A DNA stretch of 34,464 nucleotides. Origin: Phycisphaerae bacterium. Its GTDB lineage: Bacteria > Planctomycetota > Phycisphaerae > UBA1845. Position 1 is the stretch's first letter; each line of letters starts with the position of its first letter. The notes under the pieces are model-generated. The model made no database searches and was not told the origin of the DNA. It worked only from the letters and a program-made list of their open reading frames with translations. The translations under genes were made by a program, and so were the position numbers. Positions 1,423 through 27,073 of the stretch are shown here, in pieces. The stretch spans positions 1-34,464 of the forward strand of contig JASFUW010000003.1 in assembly GCA_050050135.1 (NCBI GenBank). Direction: 5' to 3'.

Positions 1423-1908
1423 GGTTCCTCTCAGCCGGGCGCAGCGTCGCTGTGGGTCGCGCGGGCCCGACGGGCCCGGTCCCACCGCACGACCCCCTAC
1501 CTGGGTGTCGACGGTTCGGGCGAGGGTGCCGCAGACATTGCCAGGCCCCTACGAACGATATCCCGGGCGAGTGGTACTTTCCACGAATCCGTGTGATCCG
1601 GGGCCGAAATATGGGTCCGATGTGACGTGCGAACGCGCTCCAACAAGCGGAGTTTCGACATGGGACGGAGGGAGGACTTGGCGCGAATTAGTGAGGGGCG
1701 GCAGCCGGGCACAGAATCGGCGTTTGAGTGAAAATAGGACAACTGTGGTCGTCGCACGCTCCGCACGTACGCGGGCCCGGCGACGTAGCATAGACCGTAG
1801 CGTTCCCGATTCGGTGGACAGAACCGTTCGGGCTCCCGGCGCTGCGGCTCTTTGACACGAGTGCCCGCGAGGTGGAAAATACGAGTTCCAAGGGGTAGGA
1901 TCGACACC

Positions 1909-2316
1909 GTGAAGATCGAGATGCTCAAAGCGAAGCTGCACCAGGCACGGATTACCCATGCAGACGTCGAGTATGAGGGGAGCCTGGGGATCGACGTCGA
2001 GTTGATGGAGGCGGTCGGGCTGTGTCCGTACGAGAAGGTGCTGGTCTCGAACCTGAACAACGGGAGCCGGCTCGAGACGTATGCGATCTCGGAGCCGTTC
2101 GGTTCGCGTCGGATCGTCTTGAACGGTGCGGCGGCGCGGCTCGGCGCCGTCGGCGACCGGATCATCATCATGTCGTTTTGCTGGGTGGACGACGCGGTGG
2201 TGCGCGACGGTCGTTTTCGACCGCGGATCATTCGCCTCGATGAGCATAACGACCCGGTCCAACGGCTCAGCTCCAGGTCTTCGGACGAGGGGATTCCGTC
2301 GATGCTGGAGCGTTGA
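1909..2316 (+). CDS. panD: Aspartate 1-decarboxylase proenzyme
   Basis: MLKAKLHQARITHADVEYEG|SLGID (Gly-Ser self-cleavage site), NNGSRLETY, LNGAAAR, GDRIII. GTG start at 1909 after GGGTAGGA is preferred over 1852. Confidence 0.96.
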   Translation: MKIEMLKAKLHQARITHADVEYEGSLGIDVELMEAVGLCPYEKVLVSNLNNGSRLETYAISEPFGSRRIVLNGAAARLGAVGDRIIIMSFCWVDDAVVRDGRFRPRIIRLDEHNDPVQRLSSRSSDEGIPSMLER

Positions 2317-4548: not shown

Positions 4549-7500
4549 CTAGTCTATGGGGACGGCGGCTTTCGCGTTGCCGTCGGTTTGCACGATCTTC
4601 GGGCCGTACACCGGACGGCTGGTGGTTGTGGTCGGTTTCGGTCGGGAGATGACCGGTCCGTAGCTCTTGGGTGTGGGGCCGTAGAGCCTGCGCTCCTCCC
4701 GGTCCGGCGTCGAGGTCGGGTCGATCGCGCCGGGCGCTCGGCCGTTGCGGTCAACGGGGCCCATGCCCTGCTCTTCCGCGGTGATCCGGAGCCCTTCCAT
4801 GAGCGCGCTGCTGCGGATGGAGTCGGGGAGCACGAACTTGTCGCGCTGCTCGATCGACATGTGGCGGGCGTCCTGGTCGGTGCGGAGGATGTCGACGGTC
4901 ATGACGATAAGAAGCTCTGTCTTCTGCTCCGAGATGCCGGTGGCGCGGAACAGATGCCCGATCAGCGGAATATCCCCGATCAAGGGGACCTTGTTGTGCC
5001 CCTCGGAATGACGCGAGGTGATCAGCCCGCCGATGACCACGGTCTCGCCGTCGCGAAGGGTGACGTTGGTCTGGACCTCGCTGGTGTTGAACACGGGCTG
5101 CGACACGCCCTCTGTGATCTGGAAGTTCTCTCCGCCGAAGCTGGATATTTCCTGGGACATTTCGACGGTGACGTAGCCGTCGGGGCTGATGTGGGGGGTG
5201 GCGGTGAGCACGATGCCGACGTCCTCTCGGCCGATGACGGTGTTGGTCGAACCGGACTCGGTGACCTGGGAACTTTCGACGAAGGGGATCTCGTCGGCGA
5301 TGGTGATGTTGCCCTCTTCGCCGTTGCGGACGAGGAGGATGGGTCGTGAAAGGACCTCGAGCCGACTTTCACCCTGGAGGGCGTTGACCAGGAACGAGAA
5401 ATCCTCGCCGGCGATGGAGAAGCTGAAGCCGAGGCCACTGCCGACGCCGAAGCCGGTGCCGCCGACGAAGTCGAAGTCGGCGCCTTGGACGAGACCGTTC
5501 GGCCCGACGATGGCGTTTTCGGAGAATCGGAGGTCTTGTCCGGCGAGCTCGACGCCGAGGTCGAAGTCGTCCTGAAGCCTGACCTCGGCGATGAGCACGG
5601 AGATCATGACCTGGGGCTCGGGGCGGTCGAGTTCCTGGATCATGGCCATCGTATCGAGGTAGCTTTGCCTGGAGGTTCCGATGATCAGGCTGCGGCCGCC
5701 CTGCTCTTCGCTGCCGACGGCTTCGACCGATATCTGGCGTTCCATGCGGCGGAGCCTGGCCTCCTGGTCGTCGATTTCGCCGAGGACGTCCTGCTCCTGC
5801 TGGTTGAAGCCCTGGATCGCACTGGCGATCTGATCGGGCTCCATGTACTTAGTCTGCATGACCTGGACGACGCGGTCTTCGGCTTCCTGCGAGTCGAGGT
5901 AACGGACGAGTTCCTCGACCATTCGGAGGTCGACCTCGGCGCCGGCGGCGATGAGGGTGTTGGTTCGTGTGTCGGCGGCGAAGCGGAGGTCCTGGCCTAC
6001 GCTGGAGACCTCGAACTCACCGATGGTATCGCCGAAGACGAGTTGGCTTTTTGCTTCGCCGTCGGCGGTTTCGGCCTCGAAGAGCTCGGTCAGTTGGTCG
6101 ACCATCGACTCGGAGTCGCTGTTGATGAGGGGGAAGAGTCGGATTTCCGAGCGTATGGGTCTGATGGTGTCGAAGTCTCGAATCATGGACTCCAACATGG
6201 CCATGCTGTCCACCGGAGCCATGACCATGAGGGAATTCGTTCGGGGATCTGCTTCGACGGTGATGTCCTGGCGGAGGAGCTTTCGGAGTGTCTCACTGCC
6301 GTCATCCGACTTTTCGATGAAGGAGACGATGACGGCGCGCTCATCGTCGTTGCCCGCCTCCTCGCCGACGACGGTGCGGCGGAGGAGGTCGGCGAAGTCT
6401 TCTGCAAGGGCCTGTTTGAGCTGGACGACCTTGACCATCGTTTCGACCGCGGGGGTGGCTGTGTCGAGTCGGGCGATGACCTGCTCGATGTTCTCCATCT
6501 GAGACGGCGCCGCCCAGACTACGATGGAGTTGGTTCGCTCATCGGCCTCGGTGGCGATGGCGTCGGCGCGTCCGCCTCCCGAGTCCGCTTGCGACTGGAA
6601 AACGCTTTCCAGCTTCTCGGCGACGGAGTTGGCTTTCGCCCGCTGGAGGGGGAAGATCTGGAACTGGCGGGCGATGCTGGAGGGTCTGTCGAGGAGGCTG
6701 AGCAGCTCGGTGATGGCTTCGTGATCGTCGCGGGAGGCGCTGGATACGAGACTGTTGGAGGCTTCGTCGGCGAGGATCACGATGGGTGTGCGGGTGATCT
6801 CGCTGCCCTCGTCACGGGAGTCGAAGAGCTCCTGCATGCGTTCGGCAAGCTGGACCGCAGAGGCGTACTCGAGTGGATAGACCTTGAAGATGGCGGTCAT
6901 GGGACCGACCTTGACGTCGAGGCGCTGAACGAGCCCGGCGGTGCGTTCGAGGGCGTCGCGTGAGCCGGCGACGACGAGTGCATTGCTTCTGGGGTCGGGC
7001 ATGATGGTTGGGGCGGTGAAGGACTCGGAGTCGCCCGCCATGCCCTGGAACAGCTCGTCGAGCATGTCCGCGAGGACGGCGGCGTCGGCGTATTCCAGCT
7101 TGTAGAGCGAGGTGTCCTCGATGACCGGCTGGGACTCGAGGGTGCGGACCAGCTCCTTGATCTCCTCGTAGTCCTCGATGCTGGACGCGATGATGAGGGC
7201 GTTGCTGCGGTCGTCGACGACGACGACGGGGGTGTCTTCGAGGAGTTCCTCTTCGGCGCGCAACTGGGCCTTACGTTCCCAGAGTTCTTCGATCTTCTGC
7301 TTGATGTCGTTAGCGGAGAGGCGTTCGCACCTTACGATGCGAATCTGGTCGAAGAGCTTGGCCGGTTTGGTGTCGAGCTGCCTGGCGAGTCGGAGCACGT
7401 CCTGGTGGTTCTCCTCGGAGGCCGAGAGGATGAGCGAGTTTGTGCGGAGGTCGACACTGAGGAAGATTCGCTCGCGTTCGAGGGCTGCGCGGCCGGCGTC

Positions 7501-9069
7501 GGTGGCTTCAAGGGCTTCCAAACGCTGATCAAAGAGGTCCTGGATGATCTTTGCGACCTTGCTGGCGTCGGTGAATTCGAGCTCGATGAAACGCAGGGGG
7601 AACTTCAAAGCGGTGGCCGGTCGGTCGAGCTCGGCGACGACGGTGTCGACGAGTCGCAACTGTTCCTCGCGACCGGAGACGATGAGGGTGTTGGTTCTGA
7701 TGTCGGTGGAGACGCCGATCTTGTAGGCGAAGGCCTTTCCGACCGGACCATCGGGGACGGACTCTGCGCCGCTGCCGTCGGGGTCTTCGGGGAGTTCCTT
7801 GCCCTTGTCGAACATCTCGTCGATGGTCTCACCGACGGATTCGGCGTCTGCGAATCTAAGTGCGAAGAACCTGACATGGGCGTCTTCGCCGAGGGGCACG
7901 CCGTCCATGAGGCGGATCAACTCGGTCATCGGTCCGACGTTGGCTTCGACGGTGGCGATGATGAGGCTGTTGGTGCCTTCGTCGGCGAGGATGCGGGTCG
8001 GTCGTTCGAGATCGATGGCGGGCAGGTCGATGATCTCACCGGTGGTGGGGTCTGCTTTGCTGATCTGGAGGCGGGAAATGGCCTCTTCGGCTTCTTCACG
8101 ACCGGTATCGGATTTAAGCAGTTCCTCGATGACATCGGCCATCTCGTTGGCTTTGGAGTGGAGAAGCGGGAACAAGACGAGCTTGACCTCGCCCCAACCC
8201 TTGACGGGCTCGACGTCGATTTCGTTCAGCAGGGCCTGGATCTTCTCGCGCTCGGTCTCAGGGGCAAGGACCATAATGCTGTTGTTGGCGTCGTTGGGGA
8301 TGATCTGGAACTCGCCCTTGGCGCCGGTGGCGCCCTGCTTCTCGCGGAGCTTGGTGATGATCTCGGTCAGCTCTTCGGCGACCACGGACGCCCGGCGGTT
8401 CTTGACCGGGAAGACAAGCTGCTCGGGCTCGGGCAGCTCGTCCTTCAGCTCGTCCACCCTGTGGATGACGTCGATGATGAACTCGAGTTCGTTGGGCAGG
8501 GCGGAGACGAGCAGGACGTTGGACGACAGGGCGGTGACGGAGAGTTCGAGCTCCGGTCTGCGGTTGGGCTCGAAGAAGACATCTTTGAGCGGTTGCTCGA
8601 TGGCGCGGGCGATGTCGTTGGCGTCCTTCTCGGTGACGGTGACGACGCGCAGCTCCTTCTTTTCCGTGGTCTTGTCGAGCAAGGCGACCAGCAGCTCAAC
8701 GATCTGGATGTCCTGGGGTTGACCGTAGACGATGATCTGATCACCGACGACCTCGTAGTCGAGTTCGGCGCCGGTGAACGTGATCAGCGAGGGATCGATG
8801 TTCTTGAGGGCCTCCTGAACCGTATCCACTCGGGACTCAGTGCGTGCGCGGGCGGCTTCCTCCGGCGTTACGCCCGGCGGCAACTTCTTGGGCGCGGGTT
8901 GTTTCGGTTGTGCCGCTTGCCTGCGTTTGGCCGGTTGGGTGGGCTTGTCCGGTTGCACATCCTGGGCGACCGCCGCATTCGGGAAGGCGATCAGTGCCAA
9001 CGTCAGTGCACTGCAAACCCACCACGGCCTCGCTACCCGCCGCTGTCGACACCATTCATTTGTCCGCAT
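4549..9069 (-). CDS. gspD: Long GspD-family secretin (~1506 aa): signal peptide, half repeat plus ~12 NolW-like N-repeats, C-terminal secretin domain
   Basis: Start ATG 9069 after AGAGGA; signal peptide ...LALIAFPNAAVA|QD. Repeats follow L-x-Y/F-A-D-A...D-x-R-T-N-S-L-I-V...L-D. Secretin core motifs PQVMISVLIAEV, VLSRP, DVGIVLTATPHI, DGETVVIGGLI, KVPLIGDIPLIGHLFR, TELLIVMT (~4885-5620). Confidence 0.93.
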   Translation of the reverse strand: MRTNEWCRQRRVARPWWVCSALTLALIAFPNAAVAQDVQPDKPTQPAKRRQAAQPKQPAPKKLPPGVTPEEAARARTESRVDTVQEALKNIDPSLITFTGAELDYEVVGDQIIVYGQPQDIQIVELLVALLDKTTEKKELRVVTVTEKDANDIARAIEQPLKDVFFEPNRRPELELSVTALSSNVLLVSALPNELEFIIDVIHRVDELKDELPEPEQLVFPVKNRRASVVAEELTEIITKLREKQGATGAKGEFQIIPNDANNSIMVLAPETEREKIQALLNEIDVEPVKGWGEVKLVLFPLLHSKANEMADVIEELLKSDTGREEAEEAISRLQISKADPTTGEIIDLPAIDLERPTRILADEGTNSLIIATVEANVGPMTELIRLMDGVPLGEDAHVRFFALRFADAESVGETIDEMFDKGKELPEDPDGSGAESVPDGPVGKAFAYKIGVSTDIRTNTLIVSGREEQLRLVDTVVAELDRPATALKFPLRFIELEFTDASKVAKIIQDLFDQRLEALEATDAGRAALERERIFLSVDLRTNSLILSASEENHQDVLRLARQLDTKPAKLFDQIRIVRCERLSANDIKQKIEELWERKAQLRAEEELLEDTPVVVVDDRSNALIIASSIEDYEEIKELVRTLESQPVIEDTSLYKLEYADAAVLADMLDELFQGMAGDSESFTAPTIMPDPRSNALVVAGSRDALERTAGLVQRLDVKVGPMTAIFKVYPLEYASAVQLAERMQELFDSRDEGSEITRTPIVILADEASNSLVSSASRDDHEAITELLSLLDRPSSIARQFQIFPLQRAKANSVAEKLESVFQSQADSGGGRADAIATEADERTNSIVVWAAPSQMENIEQVIARLDTATPAVETMVKVVQLKQALAEDFADLLRRTVVGEEAGNDDERAVIVSFIEKSDDGSETLRKLLRQDITVEADPRTNSLMVMAPVDSMAMLESMIRDFDTIRPIRSEIRLFPLINSDSESMVDQLTELFEAETADGEAKSQLVFGDTIGEFEVSSVGQDLRFAADTRTNTLIAAGAEVDLRMVEELVRYLDSQEAEDRVVQVMQTKYMEPDQIASAIQGFNQQEQDVLGEIDDQEARLRRMERQISVEAVGSEEQGGRSLIIGTSRQSYLDTMAMIQELDRPEPQVMISVLIAEVRLQDDFDLGVELAGQDLRFSENAIVGPNGLVQGADFDFVGGTGFGVGSGLGFSFSIAGEDFSFLVNALQGESRLEVLSRPILLVRNGEEGNITIADEIPFVESSQVTESGSTNTVIGREDVGIVLTATPHISPDGYVTVEMSQEISSFGGENFQITEGVSQPVFNTSEVQTNVTLRDGETVVIGGLITSRHSEGHNKVPLIGDIPLIGHLFRATGISEQKTELLIVMTVDILRTDQDARHMSIEQRDKFVLPDSIRSSALMEGLRITAEEQGMGPVDRNGRAPGAIDPTSTPDREERRLYGPTPKSYGPVISRPKPTTTTSRPVYGPKIVQTDGNAKAAVPID

Positions 9070-9087
9070 GATGGTTTCCTCTGTAAA

Positions 9088-9119
9088 GCCGGGTCTTCCA
9101 TACCGGCCGGGTCTTTCCA
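9088..9119. repeat. Imperfect tandem direct repeat upstream of the secretin RBS
   Basis: GCCGGGTCTTCCA (9088-9100) and GCCGGGTCTTTCCA (9106-9119). Confidence 0.6.
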
Positions 9120-9201
9120 CTCGCGTTCCTTTCGGCTGCCTTCCCCTTGGCGGTACGTTCACGCGTCCCGGATTCACGAATGCCGGGCTTGCCCACGTTT
9201 G

Positions 9202-12200
9202 TCACGGCCGGCGTCCCCTTCCGCTTGAAGCCGGTCGACGACGGCTGCTGGACGAACTCTTGCGCGTGGTGGAGGACGCGCCTTCGCCGCGCAGGCGCTC
9301 GATCAAGCTGGTGAGTTCGTCTGCCGGGACCGTATCGATCGTGATCACGGCCATGCTTCGCCCGCTCATGGGGCCCATTTCTTCCATTTCTCGAGCCAGC
9401 TTCTCCGCATCGTCGAACAGCTCCGGAGAGCCCGCGAAGACCAGAGAGATCGTCCGACGATCCGGCGTCACGGTTATGCTCGGTACGTCACGACGCCCCT
9501 TACCTGAGGTGGCACGTGCGGAAGCACCGTTATTGATCACACTCTCGACGGTCTCGGCCATCTCGGTGACGTTGACACCGGGGGCCAACTGGACGATTCG
9601 GAAGTTGGTACCGCCGGCAGCCTCTTCGGTGTCGAGTTTTTCAACCAGGGACTGGATGGCGCTCAAATCCGCCCGGCCGGCGCTGACGATCAGGTTCTTC
9701 TGGGACTCGTCGGCTGTGATGACGGGGGTTCTCTGCCCTTTCATGGTTCGGCCCTTGGCCTCGACGATCGCCTCCTGCAAAGTGGGTAGTATCTGCCCCG
9801 CAGTTACGTGCTTGAGCGGGATGAGCTGTGGTTCCGTCTGGTCCTTGGCAGCTTCATCGAGCTTGTGAATCTGCTCTTCCAAGTCGTTCACGCGTTCGAG
9901 GCTTCCGCTGACGAGCATCGCGTTACTGCTCGCGAGCGGAGCGAGCTTGATGTTTCCGACCAGCTCCTTGCCTCGCCCTGAAGGCTTTTGTAGTGCCTGC
10001 TCCATGGCACGTTGCATTTCGGTCGCATCACCGTAGAGCAGGGTGACCACGCGGACCTCTTCGGCGCCGGCGGCGGCCTCGCTGTCCAGTTCCTTGATCG
10101 CCGCGTCGATGTCGGCGAAGTCCTGCTCGTTGCACTTGACGAGAAGGGCCTTGGACCCCCCTACCGCCGAGATCGAGATCGGCTGGGGGCCGCCGCGCGG
10201 TCGGGCGGCGGAGCGGATGAAGACCTCCGTCAGCGTGCGTGACATCGACTCGGCATCGGCGTTTTCCAGCGTGACGACGTGAACTTGTTCCTCCGCGCTG
10301 GTCTCGCTATCGAATTCCTCCAGAAAGGCTTCGATGCGCTTCAGGTTGGCGGGTGACGCAGAGACCACGACGGACGAAGTTTCGTGATCGCCGATAGCGG
10401 CGACCTGGTCGCGGGGGCTGCGGCCGCCGCGGAACAACCTGGTGATGGCTTCCTGGGCGATGTAGGGATCGGCGTTATTCAAGTGGAAGCTCTTTACCTG
10501 TTGCATGCCGGTCAGGTCAGGCTCGACGTCGAGCGATTCGATCAACACGGTCAGCTCGAGCATTTCGTCGCGGGTGGCCGAGATCAGGAGGGAGTTCGAG
10601 GCGACATCCGGGGTTATTTGAACGGCTTGTTCGCCGCGGCGCGTGGGTCTTTGTCCGCGATAGACCTGTTGCAGAGCCCGGGCGGTCTCGTCGGCGCTTG
10701 CGTGTTGAAGCTTGTAGGTGTGGAGTTCCTTGGTCAGTGTGGACTCGACGTCCACCTTCTCGATGAAGGCCTTGATAATCGCGTGGGTCTTTGCCGGAGC
10801 GGTGACGATCACCGATTGGGTGGCCCATTCCGGGGACGAGGTCACCTGTTGTGATGGGCTCGGCTGCGAGCGGACATCCCACCGAAACATATTGAGAATG
10901 ACGCCGTTGACACTGCCGGGGTCGGCATACTGGAGGGGATAGACCTCGGTGACGCGTTCGGCCTCCAAGGGCGATTCGATGTCGATCTCGGTGAGCAGAG
11001 CCTCAATCTCGGCGAGCTCTTCGTCGTTAACGTTGGCGACGATGGAGTTGGTCTTGGCGTCTGCGACGAATGCCGGTCCCTGGTCGCCGCGTGTTCGGCG
11101 GGTCACCTGCCGGAACAATTGTGTGAACTGGTTGGCCACCTCGGCGGCCGAGGCGTGGGTAAGCCGCAGCACGTGTCGCCCGCGCTGCCTGGTGGCGACG
11201 GTCTCGTCGTCGAGCCCGTCGAGCAGGTCCTTGATGATCATGTGGTTGGATTCGGACGCGGAGACGACGACGGACTGGGTGCCCTGCTCGGCGAAAGCGG
11301 TAACGACGTCGCGTGGGGCCTGTCTGCCCTTGGTTTGCGAGCGTGATCTGGCCCACTGGTTGATGATGTTGACGACGGCGTTGGGGTCGGCGTACTTGAT
11401 GGCGTAGATCTTCATCGCTGTCGCGCTGATGGCGGCGATGTCTTCGCGGTCGAGCTCGGCGACGCGCTGCCGGACCATCTGCATGTTCGTCTCGGACGCC
11501 TGGACGACGACCTGTTTGGTGTCGGTCACCGGTGTTACGACCACGGTGTAGTCGAGGGGGGGCACGTTGGCCCCGCGCCCGAGCCCCTTCATGGCGCGGG
11601 CCTTGTCCTCGAAGATGCGGTTGAGCGATTCGGCGACCGCTTCGGGCTCGGCGAATTCGAGCGTGATGGTCTCGGTCTGGAGCTTGAGCGCTTCCTGGGC
11701 TTCGAGCGGGTCGATGACCTCGCTTTTGATCTCGTCGAGCTGGGCCTGGGTCCCGCGGACGATGAGCATGTTGAGGGAGCGGTTGGCTTCGGCGGTGGGC
11801 GGTATCTCGCCTTGTGCCAGGTTTCTGCCACTCCAGAGGCGGTTGATGTTCTGTGCCACTTCTGTGGCGTCGCCGTTTTGCAGGTGGATCATCAAGAAGC
11901 CGGGCGGGCTTTTGGCGTAGGCGGGGACGTCGACCTTTGCCAGGTTCTCTTCGATGAACCCGAACACGGCCGGTCCGCCGAGGGCGATGATGGCGTTGGC
12001 CTTGTCGTCGACCTCGACGCTGAATGCCTCGATGTTGGCACCGCGTCCCATGCGCCGCATGTAGTCTGCAATCAGCTTGGTCATCAGGGTGTGGACCTGG
12101 CGGGCGTCGGCGTATTTCAGCGGGTAGATGCGGAACTCGAAGCCGATTTCGCGCGGCTTGTCCAATGACTCGACGAGCGACTCGATCTCGGCGAACATGG

Positions 12201-15200
12201 TGTCGTCGGCCACGACGAAGAGTGTCTTGCTGGGGTCATCGCCGGTGATGGTGAACTGGGTGCCGCCCGATTGACCACCGCCCCGTCGGCCTCGGCTTCC
12301 GCCTCGTCCGCCGTACGCGGTCTGGATCGCCTCCGCGACCTCGGACGCCTGGGCGTGGAGGACGGGGATGACACGAACGGTGTCCGTAATCTCCGCCTCG
12401 GACTCCAACCGGGCGATGGTCTCGTCGATCAGGTCGCGCTGATTGCTAGGGGCGGTGAAGATCAGCATCCGGCTGCCCTCCTCGCCGATGAACACGGGGC
12501 CGGTCTCGTCGCCGGCGGTGGTGGTCCCGCGTCGCGGGCGGCCTCTGCGGCTCGGTGTGCTCCGTTTGCCGGTGAACATCTGGGTGAGGGTGTCGGCGAC
12601 GGCGCCGGCGTCGGCGTGCTTGAGGACGACGTGCTCCCACTGGCGGTCGTCCTTGACGTCGAGGCGGGCGATGATGTCGTCGATCTCCTCGAAGTCGTCT
12701 TCGAGGGCAAGGACGGTGATCATATTGAGCCGCGGGAAGGGAATGAACGTCGGCGCGGTCAGGATACCGGTCGCCCCGCTCGATGATGCATCCCTGCCGC
12801 CCCGCCGCCCACCGCGTGGTCTGGTGGGCTCGTCGCCGTAATGGGTTTCGAGGTATCCGACGACCTCATCCGCATCGGCGTGCTCAAGTTCATAGTACCT
12901 AGCCACTCGTTCGTGAACTTCGGCGGTCTCGAGCTGCTCGATGATGTTCTCGATATAGTCCAAAGCCACCCGCGGCGCGACGGCGATGATCGTGTTCGCG
13001 GTCTCGTTGCTGTGCAGGCTGATGTCCTCGGGATCGATGCCCAGCAGGTCGCCTGTCTTGGTCTCTTGCAGGATGGTCTCGGGGAGTTGACTGCCGGGGC
13101 CGGTGGTGGAGACGGTCGCCTGGGGTTGTGCGCCACGCCGCGTCCGACGGGACCGACTCACCCTTCGGGGCTGCTCGTCGAGACCGAGGATGTCCTTGAG
13201 CATTTCTTCGACTTCGGCGGCGTTGAGTTTTTCGAGACGGAAGATGCGCATTTCACTGTCGATCGGCTTGGGCCGATCGATGGTGGCGAGGAGTTCCAAC
13301 AACGCCGAGTACTGGCTGGTATCCGCGCGGAAGATCAGGGTTCGATCGCGTTCGTTGGCGTAGACCCGAACCGCGGTTTCGGGCAACTGCGGCGCGGCAG
13401 GCGTTGCGGTCGGTTGGGCACCGCGACGTCCGCGACCGGGCTGCTGGTCCTCCTGATCGTCCCGGCCTGGCTGCTGTTGACGGGCCCGTTGTTGCTGCAG
13501 TCGGGCCTGTTGTCGAGCCCGCTGGGCTGCCAAACGCTGCTGCTGGACCATCATCTGCCGCTGCTGACGCGTGGCGTTGTACATTTCATTGATGATGTCC
13601 GCGGCGGTGTTGACGTCGATATAGCGGACGCGGTACACACGGATGTCGGGCCTGGCCGTTGTCTCATCACCGAGGTCCTCATCGATCTCCGTGACCCAGT
13701 CCGGTACCTCGTCGACGACGCTGGCCTGTCCGTTGATATAGAGCACACCCTCTTCATCATCGTATTCGATGATGACCTTCTCTTCGTCCATAAGGGAGGT
13801 GGCCACATCGACCAGCTCTCGGTCGGTCTCTTCCGGCGCGTGGTGCGCGGTTTCTTCCGCCGGGTCCTGCGCGGTCTCGTCCGGTGGGTCCTGCGCGGTG
13901 ACGGTGACGGCGAGCGCGTCAACCATACGGGTGAATCCGGTTGGAAGAACGCACGGGGTCGGCTGTGGCGGAACGGCTTCCCGCGTTGTCGGTTCCGGGA
14001 TCAAGCGTGTGAGCCCGTATTCCTCCGTCGGGCCTTCGCGAAGGTTTTTGATCTGGATGTCCAATTCGGGATGCGTCGCCTGCAGTAGGTATGCCAGCTC
14101 TTTGGCAGTAAGTTTCTTCGGGACTCGAACCGTCTTCCGGATCTTCTTCATTTGATCGGGGTCAGGCTTGTCGACATACTCCCGGATGATCGCCCTGATC
14201 TCGTCGAAGCGCTCTTCATAGGGATACTTGACGACCAGGTAATCGCCCCAGAACGCCTCCTCGACCTTGGGCAGTTCCCCGGGGTAAGACCAGAGCTGCT
14301 CGATGGCCATCTCCGCGTTAAAGACCGCATCGAAGGCGTCGGTGTATCTCAGCTCGTAGGTGAAACTCGGAATGACCGGTGCGCTGGTGACCCCAAGCTC
14401 GTCCTCACTGTCGAACCGCGAGATGGTGTCCTCGATCTCGGCCATCTTCGCCGGGGTGGTGGATACGAGCAAGGTTCGGGAAATCAGGTCGGCCTGCATG
14501 TATAGCTGGTCGCCGTCCCATGTCTTGGTGGAGGCGAACTCGTCCTCTTCCTCCGGCTCGGCGCGTCTTCCGCGGCGGGTGGACGGCTTCGCTCCGGGAC
14601 GCACGATCGGGGTATCCACGGTGTGGATGATGAGCTCGCCGAGTCTGATGAGGTCGGCGTTGGCGATTTCGAATACACGGAGGGCTCGACCGGAGGTTGC
14701 GCGGGCGTCGAGGCGCTCAATCCAACCGACAACTTCGTCGACCTCGGGGCGTTCGCCTCGAAGAACGACAGCTTGACCACCGGGCGCTTCGGCGATGGTC
14801 AGGGCGGTGTACTCGTCCGCCGATCCGGCGGAAGCCTTGCCTTTCGCCCTTCGGGTCGTCGGTCGGGTGGGCGCGCCGCGCATCTCCTTGACGGCTTTTA
14901 CGACGTCGGGCGCCGTGGCGTGTTTTAGCTCGACGAGCTGGACGACGACCTCCTGGTCGTCACCGGGCAGGTCGAACTGGGCGATCAACGTCTTGGCCTC
15001 ATCGATGATGAGCTGCTCGGCGGAGATGACCACGCGACTGCTGCGGGGGTCGGCGAGGATGTGGAAACGCTCCGGCCTGTCGCCGGGTCGCCTCGCGCGT
15101 GTCTTGGATGATGTCCCCGGTGTGGCACTCGGATCAAGCGCGGGGTCCAGCTCTCCGCCGACGGCGAGTTCACGCACCTTCATGTTCAGAAGCGGCGTGA

Positions 15201-18159
15201 TCTGCTCGACGAGTTCGTCGGGATCGGCGAACTTGACCTCGATGAACTCGGTGAAGACCGGTTCGGGTGTGCTTCCGATGCTGAGGACGGCGATGTATTC
15301 GTCGATCTGATCGAAGTCCTCCGAGGGGGCGATGACGAGAAGCTGGCCGATGCCCGGCTGGGCGATGAACCGCGGCGCTTCCCCGGCGGCGGACTTTGCT
15401 CTGCCCTTCGACGATCGCGATCGCGGCGCTGCGGTGGCCATCAGCGACTTCAGCGTCTCGGCGATGTCCTCAATGTCCGCACCCGAGGGGAAGTCCTTGT
15501 AGACTTTCAGTTCGGTCCGGGAATCTTCGACGTCGAACTGCTCGATCAGGGCGGCGACGCGCTCCATTTTTTCGGGCGTGGCGCGCACGATCAGGCGGGT
15601 CCCCAACTCGACGATGGTCAGGTCGGGTGAGATGGTCGGCGAAGCGGCGGCGGCGGCTTGTGCCGCCTTTGATGATCTCCTCCGCGACGGCCTGCCCGCG
15701 TCACCGTCTGCGACGAGCGTTTCGATGAGGGTTTTGATATCACCGGGGTCGGCGTAGCGGATGTCGAACGTGCGTTCCTCGATGTTGACCGGTCGATCGA
15801 TCTCGGCGATCACGTCTTTGATCTGTTCGAGCTGGGTGGGGCTGGCGCCGGTCACGAGGACCGCTTCCTCCGACGGCATGAAACCGACGTTCCAGTCTTG
15901 CCCGGCGATCTCGAAGAAAGCGGGGAGGAGTTCGACGGCTTCGTCCGGGGTGATGTGCTGAAGAGAAAGGCGAACGAAGAGTGGTTCCTCGCTGCCAACC
16001 TCTTCGAGCGAATCGATGATGGGTTTGTACTCTTCCCACTGCTCGTTCGAGCACAACACGTAGAGCCGGCCGGCGTCGTCATCGGGGGTGAACTTGGAGG
16101 CGGTCATCGGGCGTGTACGGCGGCGGCGGGAGGTTCGGGTCTTCGGTTTCGGTGAAGGCGTTGGCGTCGCCTGCGGGGCTGATTCCTGCTCATACTCGCG
16201 GAGGATGCTGGCGACGAAGGACGGGAGCTGATAGGTCAACTCGACGACCCGCAGCTCGACCTCGGCATGGGGAACGTCGAGCTGTTTGACCCAGTTCATG
16301 ACCTGGTTGTACTTGGCGTTGCTTCCGGCGTACCACATGCGGGAGTCATCGTTGGCGTCGGGCACGAGCTGGAAGTCGGCCGGTCCCTTGCCGCGCTCGG
16401 GGTCTGAGGTGACGGTGGGGATGAAGGTTGCCAGCTCTATGGCAGACGCGTGGTTCAGGACAATCTCTATGGGGGGTGCAGACGGCTGGTCGAACTGGGT
16501 GACGTATTTGCGTATCTCGTCGATGTCTTCCTTCTCGCCGATGGCGATGATGGCGTCGGCTGAGGGGTGGGCGATCATGGTCAGCCCGCCCGCGGTCGCC
16601 GAGGTTGTGGGCGTCTGGTCCTTTGCTCCCCGTCGTCGGCGCGAGGGTCGCGCGCGGGTGGATGGGGTGGCGCCGTCTTCGGACGACGAAGCCACGAGGA
16701 TGTCCTCGATGATCTCAATCAGTTCGCCGGGGTCGGCGTGCTGGAGGGGGATCACGACGGGCTCTCCTTCGGGCTGTGGCACGTCGATGTAGGGCAGGAG
16801 CATTTTGATCTCCTGGATCTTGTCCTGCATCGCCCTGACGAGGAGGTACCCGCGGGTGTCGTTGGGCCAGAGCCCGACCTCCGGTTCGAGCATGTTGTCG
16901 AGTCGACTCTGGTCCTTTCCCCCGCCCCGGCGGGAGGCGGTGCTTCGGGTGCGTGCGCCGCCGCCGTCGATGTCCATCATTTCGGAAAGCGTGGCGAGCG
17001 CTTCGCTGGGCGCGATGTGCTCGACGGGAATGATCTCGAGCGTTCGTGGATCGTTGCTGCCGCCGACGAAGATGCGCTTGAACTCGAAGTACTTCTCGAT
17101 GTCGTCCACGAATGCGTAAATGGTGACCGCGTTGCGGTCCTCGATGGGGGTAACGCGGAGGTAGTCGGGCATGAAGTCGCGGACGATGCGCAGATCAGCG
17201 ACGGAGCCTGATTTGGGGGTATAGATGACGAGCACGAGTTCGTCGTCGGGGAGGCCGGCGGCGCGGAAATCCTCGAGCGTTCGGTACATGCGTGTGGGAG
17301 GCAGCTTGCGCAGATAGTCGTTGACCCGGACGACCTCGAGGTGCTTCTCGTGGCGGATTAGATAGTAGGGGTCGTGGGGTTTGTAGTGGCGGAGCAACAT
17401 CCGTACGCGGCTGAACGCCGCCTCGTAGGCGAGTTCCTCGTCCGTAACGAAATTGACTTTCCCGTCCTTTGGTGCCGCGCCTATGACACCCAGTCCGGTT
17501 TGTCGGGCGAACGCGGTGACCAGTTGCTCGTAGCTACCGTCGGCGATGCTGAACGAGTAGATCTTATCCTCGGGCGTGATTTCGCTTAGGGTCGGTTCGA
17601 CATCAAGCGTGGTGGTGTCACCGGATTCGCCTCTACCGGTGACGTCAGGCGGCATGTCGGTGCCCCGGTCGGGCGTCCGACCGGGCCGACTTCCCGTTGG
17701 TCTGCGGGTCGGGGTTCGCGGGTCCTGGTTGTTGCCCCTGCCCGCGGTCGGGTTCGGGCGTGTCGCTCTGCGGTAGCGTTCAGGGACGGTCGGCGTGGTC
17801 TTGGGGTCTTGTTGCGGACGTCGGGTTCCCGCCCTTTCGAGCAACTTCTCGAGATTCTTCTGCGACGCGGGACTGAGTCTGGGCTTGTTCGGACCGCCCG
17901 GTTTGGTGATGGGTGTCTTCGGTTTGTCGGCGTCGTCGTCCGATTCATCCTCGGACTCATCGTCTGGCGGCACATCGTCGTCCGGAGGGGGATCGGCCTG
18001 TTCTTCGCCCTCTTCCGGTTCCGGGTCCGGTGCGAGCGAAGGAGCGGCCACATCGGGCGCGGTTGCCTGCGATGCCGACAAGTCGGTCGTCAGAACGGGC
18101 CCCATGGCAAGCGCGAGACCGAGTAAAAGGATGGCTCTCAACACGATTTCCCGATTCAT
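9202..18159 (-). CDS. Giant secretin N-terminal-domain repeat protein (~2985 aa): signal peptide, N0-like domain, ~30 NolW-like repeats, no secretin barrel
   Basis: Start ATG 18159 (MNREIVLRAILLLGLALAMG). N0-like segment YSFSIADGSYEQLVTAFARQTG. About 30 repeats counted by eye, e.g. IPLQHADPGEL...HPSADAIIAIG...FDQP and YPLKYADARQV...DDKANAIIALG...VDVP. No PQVxI or GDIPxxGxLF motifs. Confidence 0.9.
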   Translation of the reverse strand: MNREIVLRAILLLGLALAMGPVLTTDLSASQATAPDVAAPSLAPDPEPEEGEEQADPPPDDDVPPDDESEDESDDDADKPKTPITKPGGPNKPRLSPASQKNLEKLLERAGTRRPQQDPKTTPTVPERYRRATRPNPTAGRGNNQDPRTPTRRPTGSRPGRTPDRGTDMPPDVTGRGESGDTTTLDVEPTLSEITPEDKIYSFSIADGSYEQLVTAFARQTGLGVIGAAPKDGKVNFVTDEELAYEAAFSRVRMLLRHYKPHDPYYLIRHEKHLEVVRVNDYLRKLPPTRMYRTLEDFRAAGLPDDELVLVIYTPKSGSVADLRIVRDFMPDYLRVTPIEDRNAVTIYAFVDDIEKYFEFKRIFVGGSNDPRTLEIIPVEHIAPSEALATLSEMMDIDGGGARTRSTASRRGGGKDQSRLDNMLEPEVGLWPNDTRGYLLVRAMQDKIQEIKMLLPYIDVPQPEGEPVVIPLQHADPGELIEIIEDILVASSSEDGATPSTRARPSRRRRGAKDQTPTTSATAGGLTMIAHPSADAIIAIGEKEDIDEIRKYVTQFDQPSAPPIEIVLNHASAIELATFIPTVTSDPERGKGPADFQLVPDANDDSRMWYAGSNAKYNQVMNWVKQLDVPHAEVELRVVELTYQLPSFVASILREYEQESAPQATPTPSPKPKTRTSRRRRTRPMTASKFTPDDDAGRLYVLCSNEQWEEYKPIIDSLEEVGSEEPLFVRLSLQHITPDEAVELLPAFFEIAGQDWNVGFMPSEEAVLVTGASPTQLEQIKDVIAEIDRPVNIEERTFDIRYADPGDIKTLIETLVADGDAGRPSRRRSSKAAQAAAAASPTISPDLTIVELGTRLIVRATPEKMERVAALIEQFDVEDSRTELKVYKDFPSGADIEDIAETLKSLMATAAPRSRSSKGRAKSAAGEAPRFIAQPGIGQLLVIAPSEDFDQIDEYIAVLSIGSTPEPVFTEFIEVKFADPDELVEQITPLLNMKVRELAVGGELDPALDPSATPGTSSKTRARRPGDRPERFHILADPRSSRVVISAEQLIIDEAKTLIAQFDLPGDDQEVVVQLVELKHATAPDVVKAVKEMRGAPTRPTTRRAKGKASAGSADEYTALTIAEAPGGQAVVLRGERPEVDEVVGWIERLDARATSGRALRVFEIANADLIRLGELIIHTVDTPIVRPGAKPSTRRGRRAEPEEEDEFASTKTWDGDQLYMQADLISRTLLVSTTPAKMAEIEDTISRFDSEDELGVTSAPVIPSFTYELRYTDAFDAVFNAEMAIEQLWSYPGELPKVEEAFWGDYLVVKYPYEERFDEIRAIIREYVDKPDPDQMKKIRKTVRVPKKLTAKELAYLLQATHPELDIQIKNLREGPTEEYGLTRLIPEPTTREAVPPQPTPCVLPTGFTRMVDALAVTVTAQDPPDETAQDPAEETAHHAPEETDRELVDVATSLMDEEKVIIEYDDEEGVLYINGQASVVDEVPDWVTEIDEDLGDETTARPDIRVYRVRYIDVNTAADIINEMYNATRQQRQMMVQQQRLAAQRARQQARLQQQRARQQQPGRDDQEDQQPGRGRRGAQPTATPAAPQLPETAVRVYANERDRTLIFRADTSQYSALLELLATIDRPKPIDSEMRIFRLEKLNAAEVEEMLKDILGLDEQPRRVSRSRRTRRGAQPQATVSTTGPGSQLPETILQETKTGDLLGIDPEDISLHSNETANTIIAVAPRVALDYIENIIEQLETAEVHERVARYYELEHADADEVVGYLETHYGDEPTRPRGGRRGGRDASSSGATGILTAPTFIPFPRLNMITVLALEDDFEEIDDIIARLDVKDDRQWEHVVLKHADAGAVADTLTQMFTGKRSTPSRRGRPRRGTTTAGDETGPVFIGEEGSRMLIFTAPSNQRDLIDETIARLESEAEITDTVRVIPVLHAQASEVAEAIQTAYGGRGGSRGRRGGGQSGGTQFTITGDDPSKTLFVVADDTMFAEIESLVESLDKPREIGFEFRIYPLKYADARQVHTLMTKLIADYMRRMGRGANIEAFSVEVDDKANAIIALGGPAVFGFIEENLAKVDVPAYAKSPPGFLMIHLQNGDATEVAQNINRLWSGRNLAQGEIPPTAEANRSLNMLIVRGTQAQLDEIKSEVIDPLEAQEALKLQTETITLEFAEPEAVAESLNRIFEDKARAMKGLGRGANVPPLDYTVVVTPVTDTKQVVVQASETNMQMVRQRVAELDREDIAAISATAMKIYAIKYADPNAVVNIINQWARSRSQTKGRQAPRDVVTAFAEQGTQSVVVSASESNHMIIKDLLDGLDDETVATRQRGRHVLRLTHASAAEVANQFTQLFRQVTRRTRGDQGPAFVADAKTNSIVANVNDEELAEIEALLTEIDIESPLEAERVTEVYPLQYADPGSVNGVILNMFRWDVRSQPSPSQQVTSSPEWATQSVIVTAPAKTHAIIKAFIEKVDVESTLTKELHTYKLQHASADETARALQQVYRGQRPTRRGEQAVQITPDVASNSLLISATRDEMLELTVLIESLDVEPDLTGMQQVKSFHLNNADPYIAQEAITRLFRGGRSPRDQVAAIGDHETSSVVVSASPANLKRIEAFLEEFDSETSAEEQVHVVTLENADAESMSRTLTEVFIRSAARPRGGPQPISISAVGGSKALLVKCNEQDFADIDAAIKELDSEAAAGAEEVRVVTLLYGDATEMQRAMEQALQKPSGRGKELVGNIKLAPLASSNAMLVSGSLERVNDLEEQIHKLDEAAKDQTEPQLIPLKHVTAGQILPTLQEAIVEAKGRTMKGQRTPVITADESQKNLIVSAGRADLSAIQSLVEKLDTEEAAGGTNFRIVQLAPGVNVTEMAETVESVINNGASARATSGKGRRDVPSITVTPDRRTISLVFAGSPELFDDAEKLAREMEEMGPMSGRSMAVITIDTVPADELTSLIERLRGEGASSTTRKSSSSSRRRPASSGRGRRP

Positions 18160-18261
18160 CTCGACGTCTCCGTCCTCACGCGATTTCCGCGTGGCGGTCA
18201 AATGGCACTCAGGTGGCGGCAAGAGACGGCGGCCACTCGTTGTCGCCCCTTACGGGGCATG

Positions 18262-26551: not shown

Positions 26552-27073
26552 CTACTTTTCGAGCCAGTTCTTGATGTCGTCGCTGCCTTCCTTGCCGCCG
26601 TCGTCGACACGGTCGGGCCCGCGGCTCCACAGGTCGTACATCTCCTCGCCATGAACCTCACCGGGGAAGCGGTATTCGTACGGGCTGCCCCAGGGGTCTT
26701 TCAGCTCCTCGAACTCACCTTCGAGATAGGGTCCTTTGTAGTTCTCGTTGTCGGCTTCCTCTTTTCGTTGGTACAGGGCCTCGAGACCCTCGTCGGTCTC
26801 GGGGAAGTTGCCCATGTCCCACTTGTAGGTTTTCAGGGCCTTGGCGATCGGCCCGTTCTGCTTGATGGCCGCCTCGCAAAGCTTGATCTTCGCCGTCTGG
26901 GCTTGCTGGAAGAGCTTGGGAATCGCAAAGGCCGCCAGCAACGCCAGGATTCCCGCTACCAGCAACAGTTCCATGAGTGTGAACGCTGATCTCCTCGCGT
27001 TCGCCGCTGCCACATCGTCGCGTCTCACCTTCGGCCGCATCACGCGTCTCCGTTTGAAAGAGAGGTCATTCAT
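26552..27073 (-). CDS. gspG: Major pseudopilin GspG
   Basis: RRSA|FTLMELLLV; ALKTYKWDMGNFPETDEGLEAL; YKGPYL; DPWGSPYEY; YDLWSRGPD; DDIKNW. Confidence 0.95.
   Translation of the reverse strand: MNDLSFKRRRVMRPKVRRDDVAAANARRSAFTLMELLLVAGILALLAAFAIPKLFQQAQTAKIKLCEAAIKQNGPIAKALKTYKWDMGNFPETDEGLEALYQRKEEADNENYKGPYLEGEFEELKDPWGSPYEYRFPGEVHGEEMYDLWSRGPDRVDDGGKEGSDDIKNWLEK

What the first reader, a model, noticed from the sequence alone, without database searches (positions are those of the whole stretch)
9205..16980. Arg-rich loops in the extender repeats versus acidic loops in the secretin repeats
Seen: the loop after the first helix is basic in most extender repeats (SRRRRGAK, RTSRRRRTRP, RPSRRRSSK, RPTTRRAKGK, RRVSRSRRTRRG, RPRGGRRGGR, PSRRGRPRRG, RGGSRGRRGG, VTRRTRG, RPTRRG), while the folded parts are acidic. 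The equivalent secretin loops are mostly acidic (EDPDGSGAES, RAEEELLED, AGDSES, EEAGNDDE, AETADGE). Established: the equivalent N3 loop of GspD faces the lumen. Inference: the conduit has a polycationic disordered lining and a charge switch along its length. It could select polyanionic cargo (acidic proteins, DNA, sulfated glycans) or guide an acidic pseudopilus.
Basis: partly seen in the sequence, partly recalled or inferred. Interest (0 to 1): 0.75.

Follow-up and report, generated by a model that had tools for sequence, protein, structure and literature searches.

The report
Charged floppy loops, giant split secretin
A giant two-gene secretion channel of a marine-type planctomycete carries floppy, positively charged loops on most ring modules of its first protein and negatively charged ones on its second. 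The pattern is real and kept by relatives, but its purpose is untested.

Summary
A 3006-aa barrel-less protein (26 full Secretin_N repeats) precedes a 1542-aa secretin (12 repeats) in a type II secretion operon. The loop between helix 1 and strand 2 is net positive in 21 of 26 extender repeats (+62 over 594 aa). It is net negative in 11 of 12 secretin repeats (-29 over 249 aa). The folded cores are equally acidic. GC bias does not explain it: 59 of 60 extender homologues (GC 0.51-0.68) keep net-positive loops, and Lys replaces Arg at low GC. Arg content itself is close to this genome's norm for hydrophobic-poor segments; the consistent sign and the lack of Asp/Glu are what stand out. The loops are hypervariable, predicted disordered, and sit where the unresolved N3 loop of GspD/PulD/pIV lies. 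Lumen orientation is inferred by homology. The InvG loop leaves the lumen when a needle passes. Long loops would fill much of a 74 A bore. Two giant relatives have neutral loops. Pseudopilin acidity does not track loop charge. Acidic secretin loops are specific to Phycisphaeraceae. This is a new variant of a known variable loop.

The parts
9202..18222 (-). Barrel-less 'extender' gene (3006 codons from the TTG; the likely start is the ATG at 18159, followed by a signal-peptide-like stretch). It holds an N-terminal conserved domain (17038-17640), 26 full Secretin_N repeats, and a non-repeat middle domain (13645-14397).
   Evidence: ORF list; translation. Pfam: Secretin_N x23 (615.8 bits) and no PF00263. 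Own HMM: 26 full repeats. AF2 of aa 1774-2025 gives three beta-alpha-loop-beta-beta-alpha units, mean pLDDT 82.8. The best PDB fold matches are ExeD, GspD and PulD N domains.
13024..16971 (-). Eleven long alpha1-beta2 loops (11-68 aa) of the N-terminal half of the extender. nt 16879-16971 (+1), 16585-16692 (+4), 16375-16407 (-1), 16099-16185 (+7), 15640-15708 (+3), 15376-15435 (+4), 15067-15183 (+2), 14803-14874 (+3), 14506-14613 (-1), 13372-13575 (+7, Gln-rich), 13024-13182 (0).
   Evidence: Loop limits and net charges.
9478..12834 (-). Fifteen shorter alpha1-beta2 loops (8-27 aa) of the C-terminal half of the extender. nt 12754-12834 (+2), 12499-12570 (+5), 12256-12309 (+4), 12025-12066 (+1), 11800-11829 (0), 11545-11607 (+2), 11305-11346 (+3), 11077-11109 (+2), 10846-10881 (0), 10624-10656 (+2), 10405-10428 (+1), 10180-10215 (+3), 9952-9987 (+2), 9727-9762 (+3), 9478-9531 (+3).
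   Evidence: The first three of these have pLDDT under 50 to 64 in the AF2 model. They are positive in 76%, 97% and 89% of 37 aligned homologues, while loop identity is 24% against 45% in the cores.
9205..9360 (-). Extender C-terminus: a half repeat (beta1-alpha1, 9289-9360), then a Ser/Gly/Arg tail of net +7 (9205-9288) that ends the protein inside what would be an alpha1-beta2 loop.
   Evidence: The same half repeat plus basic tail ends 25 distinct homologues.
4549..9177 (-). Secretin gene (1542 codons from the GTG; the likely start is the ATG at 9069). It holds 12 full Secretin_N repeats and the Secretin barrel domain (aa 1266-1432).
   Evidence: Pfam: Secretin_N x11 plus PF00263, 152 bits. 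TIGR02517 619 bits. Matches GspD/PulD chains in the PDB.
5734..8583 (-). Twelve alpha1-beta2 loops of the secretin. nt 8545-8583 (-2), 8311-8352 (+2), 7999-8112 (-6), 7720-7806 (-2), 7468-7527 (-1), 7231-7275 (-2), 7012-7044 (-2), 6784-6819 (-1), 6559-6594 (-1), 6265-6366 (-5), 5989-6075 (-6), 5734-5799 (-3).
   Evidence: Part of one long insert (aa 938-971) recurs in distant relatives, so it may be structured, not a floppy loop.
8662..8829 (-). Secretin N-terminal half repeat (a helix, then beta2-beta3-alpha2), the counterpart of the extender's C-terminal half repeat.
   Evidence: It matches HMM positions 49-74 only. It is conserved in 29 distinct homologues. Co-folding with the extender C-terminus gave weak support.
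26552..27073 (-). Major pseudopilin GspG of the same operon; the mature part is 143 aa, net -11, pI 4.6.
   Evidence: Pfam T2SSG and N_methyl; charge. The mature part is acidic in 40 of 40 distinct homologues.

Best explanation
These are the enlarged, intrinsically disordered alpha1-beta2 loops of the ring-building N domains of a giant type II secretion secretin encoded as two proteins. They are the same loop as the unresolved 'N3 loop' of GspD, PulD and pIV. Selection in Phycisphaerales keeps their net charge positive, not their sequence or length. From the order of secondary-structure elements, each loop should emerge at the rim of its ring that faces the inner membrane, next to the preceding ring and the bore (inferred). 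I propose it behaves like the InvG N3 variable loop. At rest the loops hang into or near the lumen as a diffuse cationic layer. That layer offsets the strongly acidic helices of the domains. When a pseudopilus or cargo occupies the bore, the loops are pushed into the grooves between rings and make fuzzy electrostatic contacts with the acidic domain surfaces. In Phycisphaeraceae the sign flips to negative at the gene boundary, so this family has a basic inner conduit and an acidic outer one. Shown: the loop position, the predicted disorder, the charge pattern and its conservation. Inferred: the ring stacking, the orientation and both functional states.
For: Anatomy: the fold and the tandem arrangement match GspD N1-N3. 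Three more distant homologues (L017, L019, L020) and two further ones (L088, L089) carry the extender N domain and the secretin barrel in one chain. So the extender repeats are N domains of a secretin. The gene break lies inside a repeat. Co-folding the two halves scored 0.36 against a best control of 0.00. That is a weak pass. The mark was reached by 116 of 157 solved complexes and 2 of 215 mismatches, but passes at 0.60 or under came from only 18 of those 157 and from both mismatches. The runs agree in at least 77% of contacts and the partner's pLDDT is at least 59. Own alignments were used, and split domains may pass by likeness to solved folds. Loop equivalence to the GspD/PulD N3 loop. 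Disorder: pLDDT under 50 to 64 in the loops against 89-97 in most core blocks. Selection on charge: 59 of 60 homologues are net positive over GC 0.507-0.678. At low GC (n=10) R is 10.7% and K 10.1%, net +0.111 per residue. At high GC (n=12) R is 11.7% and K 4.9%, net +0.077. Loops are 24% identical against 45% for cores, yet positive in 76-97% of 37 homologues at three aligned positions. Basic loops also occur in four of six multi-repeat secretins sampled from other parts of the phylum, at locus GC 0.644, 0.617, 0.469 and 0.389. Acidic charge sits mainly in helices 1 and 2 (-0.9 and -1.9 per repeat). Loop and core charge correlate weakly and negatively (rho -0.20, 481 repeats, kin not independent). 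Precedent for the two states: passages of PMC6155069. Lumen-pointing disordered N3 loops: PMC8563730 and 10.1101/397794.
Against: No ring model or structure shows where these loops point; orientation rests on homology to N3 alone. The secretin's own rings have acidic cores and acidic loops, so neutralisation or stapling is not a general requirement. Two giant relatives of the same genus (45 detected repeats each, another order of the class) have neutral loops: net -1 and -3 over about 880 aa, 20 and 19 loops positive against 18 and 19 negative. A long stack therefore does not need basic loops. Basic residues are not clustered beyond shuffles (26 adjacent pairs against 21.7 +/- 3.8; 314 of 2000 shuffles reach it), and no conserved motif suggests a docking site. 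The loop-core correlation is weak. Homologues are related, so 59 of 60 overstates independence.
Confidence: 0.4

Rival explanations
1. Cargo filter. The loops stay in the lumen as a polycationic brush that admits or guides polyanionic cargo (acidic proteins, DNA, acidic glycans) or the acidic pseudopilus. The acidic secretin loops then form a second zone.
For: Disordered N3 loops point into the pore in pIV and form constrictions in PulD and GspD. Charge, not sequence, is conserved, as expected for a brush. Mature GspG is acidic in 40 of 40 homologues, and the two minor pseudopilins whose mature parts I computed are -31 and -39. A listed abstract reports that secretins are needed for exopolymer slime secretion (PMC12475490, abstract only).
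Against: GspG is just as acidic (-22, -21) in the two relatives with neutral loops, so there is no covariation. Most proteins of the operon are acidic, and the long-ORF proteome is slightly acidic (-1.4 per 100 aa). With 15 subunits, a 74 A bore and rings 34 A high, loops of 23, 33 and 68 aa would occupy about 24%, 37% and 86% of the bore (my assumptions). That is hard to reconcile with passage of folded proteins or a pseudopilus unless the loops move out. An acidic outer zone would repel the cargo that the basic zone attracts. No cargo is known.
Confidence: 0.15
2. Charge bookkeeping without a specific partner. The positive loops only limit the very large negative charge of the assembly (cores about -5 per repeat) for solubility, export or folding. 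The sign in a given lineage drifts with the charge of the rest of the system.
For: There is no motif, no clustering of basic residues and free variation in length. Loop and core charge correlate weakly and negatively. The sign varies by lineage: basic in Phycisphaerales extenders, neutral in G081 and G108, acidic in Phycisphaeraceae secretins. Arg is already common in hydrophobic-poor segments of this genome.
Against: The sign is held at this one loop position in 59 of 60 homologues despite near-complete sequence turnover, while linkers and other segments of the same protein stay acidic. The adjacent secretin does the opposite with equally acidic cores. The extender remains net -142, so the balancing is far from complete.
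Confidence: 0.25
3. Outward-facing anchors. The loops project from the outside of the tube and bind periplasmic polyanions such as peptidoglycan, membrane lipids or other envelope polymers, bracing a very long tube in a wide periplasm.
For: Only that orientation is untested and that a tube of about 38 rings would need lateral support (inference). In needle-bound InvG the loop does exit between the rings.
Against: All published statements that I read place the equivalent disordered loop towards the pore when it is free. Peptidoglycan is one thin layer, whereas the basic loops run along 21 of 26 rings. No peptidoglycan-binding domain was found in the two proteins.
Confidence: 0.1

Closest known systems
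Disordered N3-domain loop of T2SS and phage secretins (E. coli GspD 5wq7, K. pneumoniae PulD 6hcg, f1 pIV 7ofh)
   Same: It lies at the same alpha1-beta2 position in the same domain family (alignments). It is unresolved or disordered and is described as pointing into the pore or forming the N3 constriction.
   Different: Known secretins have one such loop, in N3, about 20 aa long. By my count from the alignment it is near neutral in the E. coli GspD sequence shown. Here the loop recurs in 38 successive domains. It is up to 68 aa long and systematically positive in one protein and negative in the next.
InvG (T3SS secretin) N3 variable loop
   Same: It is a disordered loop of the N3 ring-building domain that accounts for a periplasmic constriction. 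It gives a precedent for a loop that alternates between lumen and inter-ring positions (passages of PMC6155069).
   Different: It is a single loop that orders on needle insertion. I did not check by alignment that it sits at the same alpha1-beta2 position. No charge array is described, and the system is a T3SS, not a T2SS.
Thermus thermophilus PilQ with six stacked periplasmic rings (PMC5745081)
   Same: [quoted passage not shown] The paper calls the six rings 'exceptionally long' (passages).
   Different: It has six rings in one chain, against 26 + 12 full repeats in two chains here. It belongs to a type IV pilus and DNA-uptake machine. Among the passages that my word search returned, none describes a charged-loop array.
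Vibrio cholerae PilQ inner-surface electrostatics (PMC7545093)
   Same: The paper notes that secretin classes differ in the charge of their inner surfaces, with the N3 region of VcPilQ negative (one passage). So axial charge differences in secretin bores are a recognised variable.
   Different: Those charges lie on folded surfaces of a single short secretin. They are not on arrays of disordered loops, and no sign switch between two polypeptides is described.

Membership tests
Secretin_N / ring-building N domain (PF03958) | Match to the family HMM above the curated cut-off | tested here: met
   Extender: 615.8 bits against a 28.2 cut-off, 23 stretches. Secretin: 363.5 bits, 11 stretches.
Secretin_N / ring-building N domain (PF03958) | [quoted passage not shown] | tested here: met
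   AF2 model of aa 1774-2025: three such units, mean pLDDT 82.8. Foldseek top hits are 6i1x ExeD (E 4.9e-9), 5zdh GspD and 6hcg PulD, over 247-250 columns.
Secretin_N / ring-building N domain (PF03958) | Assembly into stacked homo-oligomeric rings | not testable with these tools
   Inferred from homologues in which the same repeats are fused to a secretin barrel. No oligomer model was made.
Secretin (GspD type; PF00263, TIGR02517) | C-terminal secretin barrel domain | tested here: not met
   Extender: no PF00263 match. It still scores 576 bits on TIGR02517 (cut-off 351) through its repeats alone, so automatic pipelines may name it GspD. The downstream protein meets the feature (PF00263 152 bits, aa 1266-1432).
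Type II secretion system operon | Neighbouring GspF, GspG, minor pseudopilins, GspK, a GspL/PilM-like gene, and a GspE ATPase | tested here: inconclusive
   T2SSF, T2SSG, T2SSK and PilM_2 match, and T2SSJ matches weakly, on the same strand upstream. No T2SSE ATPase is in the window. Fourteen PF00437 matches lie on other contigs of this fragmented 572-contig genome.
N3-type constriction loop | Insert between helix 1 and strand 2 of the N domain | tested here: met
   HMM alignment of the 38 repeats. phmmer alignments place the GspD and PulD N3 loops at the same place.
N3-type constriction loop | Disordered or unresolved | tested here: met
   Prediction only: pLDDT under 50 to 64 in three loops. 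Sequence and length are hypervariable.
N3-type constriction loop | Projects into the channel lumen | not testable with these tools
   No ring coordinates were available to me. Published statements concern N3 of pIV, PulD and InvG only.

The most novel reading that the evidence does not exclude
The extender bore is filled by a polycationic disordered brush. With 15-fold rings that is about 15 x 26 loops and roughly +900 charges. The brush would act as a selective phase, as FG domains do in nuclear pores (that comparison is recalled, not from a call). Acidic folded cargo or an acidic pseudopilus would partition into it and move along a tube over 100 nm long. The acidic loops of the outer, secretin-encoded rings would form an electrostatic stop or release zone below the gate. 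The axial charge polarity would then be a working part of a new long-distance mode of periplasmic transport.
Probability: 0.1. Interest if true: 0.85.

Novelty: new variant of a known kind. Interest (0 to 1): 0.45.

Why it matters
Secretin N-domain loops are usually treated as unresolved, variable decoration. Here one loop position, repeated in up to 58 successive domains of a single relative, keeps its charge through near-complete sequence turnover. That is the signature of a functional disordered region. If the loops line the bore, they would set the electrostatics of what may be a very long protein conduit, and would bear on how cargo and pseudopilus move through the wide planctomycete periplasm. 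If they staple rings, they would show how a barrel-less protein can build a ring stack. Either answer gives concrete mutations to make once a cultivable relative or a recombinant fragment is in hand. The practical by-product is an annotation warning: the barrel-less extender passes the GspD equivalog cut-off.

Tried and rejected
1. Gene fission as the cause of the acidic secretin loops. I rejected this. In other families of the order the system is also split, yet the barrel-bearing protein has basic loops: L087 +20 with 12 of 14 positive, L091 +19, L094 +15. L092 and L093 are mixed, -3 and -7. Acidic loops throughout the secretin are a Phycisphaeraceae trait. In most barrel-bearing relatives outside the family, only the last two to four repeats before the barrel are negative. 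L019 is an exception (+1, 0, 0), and L094 ends -2, 0.
2. Covariation of pseudopilin charge with loop charge. There is none: GspG is acidic in 40 of 40 family homologues. It is also acidic in 4 of 4 other lineages, whether their loops are neutral (-22, -21) or basic (-19, -14).
3. Clustering of basic residues or a motif. It is not above shuffles: 314 of 2000 shuffles reach the observed count.
4. Other secretins of the same genome as an internal control. My repeat HMM recognised only one repeat in each of the C128 and C203 proteins, so this was uninformative. The second extender paralogue on C71 is even more basic (+53 over 10 repeats).
5. Electrostatics on ring models.
It was repeated with 13 closer sequences.
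7. Literature. Searches for Planctomycetes or Phycisphaerae with secretin terms, 'crateriform' with secretin, and 'giant secretin' listed no paper on multi-repeat secretins of this phylum. I read the listings only, and subscription journals are not covered.
8. The earlier-notes look-ups by place found nothing.
Full report
WHAT IS THERE. The minus strand of the window carries a type II secretion operon. It holds GspF (27234-28433), GspG (26552-27073), three further pseudopilin-like genes, GspK (21885-23612) and a PilM/GspL-like gene (20288-21895). Next come a basic 662-aa protein (18262-20250), a 3006-codon ORF (9202-18222), a 1542-codon ORF (4549-9177), a 189-aa ORF and an HtrA-like protease. 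Pfam finds 23 Secretin_N stretches and no secretin barrel in the 3006-aa protein. It finds 11 Secretin_N stretches plus the Secretin domain in the 1542-aa protein. The first protein nevertheless passes the GspD equivalog cut-off through its repeats (576 bits against 351). An HMM built from the repeats delimits 26 full repeats in the 'extender' and 12 in the secretin. Record titles of the relatives place the system in Phycisphaeraceae/Phycisphaerales, Planctomycetota, all as metagenome-assembled genomes.

THE OBSERVATION. I defined the loop as HMM columns 24-39 plus inserts, that is, between helix 1 and strand 2. The extender loops total 594 aa with R 16.8%, K 4.0%, D 5.7% and E 4.7%, net +62. 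Of the 26 loops, 21 are positive, 2 negative and 3 zero. The secretin loops total 249 aa with R 8.8% and D+E 25.3%, net -29. Of the 12 loops, 11 are negative and 1 is positive. The difference is significant for loops (Mann-Whitney p = 7.6e-6) and not for cores (-5.3 against -4.5 per repeat, p = 0.26). Within the extender the positive charge is confined to this loop. The loop is +10.4 per 100 aa, the repeat cores -9.0, the short inter-repeat linkers -15 over 144 aa, and everything else -7.6.

IS IT MORE THAN COMPOSITION? There are two controls. First, the genome itself. In 2222 long ORFs of the 5.07-Mb assembly, hydrophobic-free segments of 10 aa or more (first 80 residues dropped) hold R 13.6%, K 3.6%, D 9.2% and E 7.3%. 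They are net +0.6 per 100 aa, with 41% positive and 42% negative. Arg-richness is therefore close to this organism's norm for such segments. What is unusual is the lack of Asp/Glu and the constant sign. The binomial P is 4e-5 for at least 21 of 26 positive and 5e-4 for at least 11 of 12 negative. By a crude whole-protein measure the extender ranks only 308 of 431.

Second, the relatives. The extender's N-terminal domain is found in 38 of 41 related genomes. In 20 fetched loci, all 17 barrel-less extenders have net-positive loops (+17 to +164). All 12 separate secretins have net-negative loops (-6 to -33). In 66 further loci, 60 extender ORFs had five or more repeats: 59 are net positive and one is zero. 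This set partly overlaps the first, and the genomes are related. Locus GC runs from 0.507 to 0.678. K/(K+R) falls with GC (rho -0.52), while net charge per residue does not track GC (rho -0.13, p = 0.32). Below GC 0.56 (n=10) R is 10.7% and K 10.1%, net +0.111 per residue. Above 0.64 (n=12) R is 11.7% and K 4.9%, net +0.077. At three aligned loop positions the loops are positive in 76%, 97% and 89% of 37 homologues. Loop identity to the window is 24%, against 45% in the cores, and lengths vary freely. Charge is conserved, not sequence.

WHAT THE LOOPS ARE. An AlphaFold2 model of aa 1774-2025 (38-row alignment; mean pLDDT 82.8) gives three beta-alpha-loop-beta-beta-alpha units. Ten-residue block means are 89-97 in most core blocks and 47-64 in the loops. 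Its best PDB matches are the N1-N3 regions of ExeD, GspD and PulD (E 4.9e-9 to 1e-7, 247-250 columns). Sequence alignments put the N3 loops of E. coli GspD and PulD at exactly this position. [quoted passage not shown] A review figure legend lists GspD 'N3 constriction sites' that open on substrate passage (PMC9251779).

One point matters for the interpretation. In InvG the N3 variable loop accounts for the constriction only in the closed state. [quoted passage not shown]

THE CONDUIT. Five more distant homologues carry the extender N domain, 34-44 detected repeats and the barrel in one chain of 4115-5029 aa (L017, L019, L020; L088, L089). The extender is therefore the detached N-terminal part of a giant secretin. 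The break lies inside a repeat. All complete extenders end with beta1-alpha1 followed by a Ser/Gly/Arg tail (25 distinct homologues; window tail net +7). The secretins begin with a helix plus beta2-beta3-alpha2 (29 distinct homologues). The gene was thus cut within an alpha1-beta2 loop.

Co-folding the two halves scored 0.36 against a best control of 0.00, which the tool calls weak support. The mark was reached by 116 of 157 solved complexes and 2 of 215 mismatches. Passes at 0.60 or under came from only 18 of those 157 and from both mismatches. The runs agree in at least 77% of contacts, and the partner's pLDDT is at least 59. Own alignments were used, and a split domain may pass by likeness to solved folds. 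I reached it independently here. In other families of the order the conduit is cut into three or more genes, and the last barrel-less piece again ends in a half repeat plus an Arg-rich tail (L092, L093, L094).

HOW GENERAL IS THE CHARGE PATTERN? Basic loops along most of the conduit are the rule in the order. One relative has 58 repeats, 55 of them positive, with R 24.5% (L018). Acidic loops throughout the secretin are not general. Outside Phycisphaeraceae the barrel-bearing proteins have basic loops (L087 +20, L091 +19, L094 +15) or mixed ones (L092 -3, L093 -7). Usually only the last two to four repeats before the barrel are negative. Elsewhere in the phylum, four of six multi-repeat secretins have basic loops. 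These are L102 (15 of 15 positive), L104, L105 (locus GC 0.469) and L107 (GC 0.389). Two five-repeat ones are acidic. Two giant secretins of one genus in another order of the class (45 detected repeats each) are neutral: -1 and -3 over about 880 aa, with 20 and 19 loops positive against 18 and 19 negative. A long stack therefore does not require basic loops.

TESTS OF THE INTERPRETATION. (a) Pseudopilus. Mature GspG is net -11 with pI 4.6, the two minor pseudopilins whose mature parts I computed are -31 and -39, and GspG is acidic in 40 of 40 distinct homologues. But it is as acidic (-22, -21) beside the neutral-loop giants and (-19, -14) beside two basic-loop secretins. Most proteins of the operon are acidic too. 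This gives no discrimination.

(b) Space. I assumed 15 subunits, a 74 A bore, rings 34 A high, 135 cubic A per residue and six residues to bridge the gap. Loops of 12, 23, 33 and 68 aa would then fill about 8%, 24%, 37% and 86% of the bore slab. The short C-terminal loops could line a bore. The long N-terminal ones could not coexist with a pseudopilus or folded cargo unless they move.

(c) Neutralisation. Acidic charge sits mainly in helices 1 and 2. Loop and core charge correlate weakly and negatively (rho -0.20 over 481 repeats). Yet the secretin combines acidic cores with acidic loops.

(d) Basic residues are not clustered beyond shuffles.

VERDICT. The pattern is real, specific to one loop position, and maintained by selection on charge. 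It is best read as a new, repeated and charge-tuned variant of the known variable N3 loop in a two-gene giant secretin. My preferred mechanism (0.4) is an InvG-like two-state loop. At rest it forms a cationic layer at the bore, and when the bore is occupied it moves into the acidic inter-ring grooves. A permanent cargo-selecting brush (0.15), plain charge bookkeeping (0.25) and outward anchoring (0.1) remain open. Nothing here bears on DNA or glycan cargo. The listed searches (listings only) turned up no paper on such secretins in this phylum. Earlier notes of this scan describe giant secretins, and Tyr/Arg/Ser-rich or Gly-rich loops at the same position in other genomes. Those notes are leads, not evidence.

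Noticed in passing
window 9205-9360 and 8662-8829: The extender ends with half a Secretin_N repeat (beta1-alpha1) plus an Arg-rich tail. The secretin starts with the other half (beta2-beta3-alpha2). So the gene break lies inside a repeat, in the very loop under study. This is conserved in 25 and 29 distinct homologues. Co-folding gave only weak support (0.36 against a best control of 0.00).
   Followed up: partly
window 13645-14397 and 13024-13575: A non-repeat domain of about 250 aa interrupts the repeat array (aa 1276-1526). It is followed by the two longest loops (68 and 53 aa); the first is Gln-rich and looks helical. Long Gln-rich (or Gln/Pro/Gly/Met-rich) loops recur at about the same place in L014, L017, L019 and L020. 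It may be a special collar or gate.
   Followed up: no
G000:C71 (locus L097): The same genome holds a second extender paralogue: a 1250-aa ORF on a 15.3-kb contig, about 50% identical in the N domain. Its loops are even more basic: +53 over 10 repeats, R 24%.
   Followed up: partly
L092, L093, L094 (other families of the order): There the conduit is cut into three or more genes. The last barrel-less piece again ends in a half repeat followed by an Arg-rich tail, which suggests repeated fission at the same loop.
   Followed up: partly
window 9202-18222: The barrel-less extender scores 576 bits on the NCBIfam GspD equivalog TIGR02517 (cut-off 351) through its repeats alone. Annotation pipelines may therefore name it a secretin although it has no pore domain.
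   Followed up: no
window 18262-20250: A 662-aa protein just upstream of the extender has an N-terminal hydrophobic segment and a very long Lys/Pro/Arg-rich tail (net +19, pI 9.4). It has no Pfam match. It may be a periplasm-spanning GspC/GspM-like partner.
   Followed up: no
window 17923-18042: After its signal-peptide-like start the extender has a 40-aa Asp/Glu/Pro tract (net -19). A basic Pro/Arg/Thr tract (net +13 over 100 aa) follows it.
   Followed up: no
L079: One homologous locus comes from a record titled 'Alphaproteobacteria bacterium', while all the others are Phycisphaerae or Planctomycetota. This is probably a mislabelled or mis-binned MAG.
   Followed up: no
window 1497-2231: A 244-aa minus-strand ORF has pI 11.5 and no family match. 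Another minus-strand ORF of 274 aa (1549-2373), in a different frame, overlaps it. It may be a spurious ORF.
   Followed up: no
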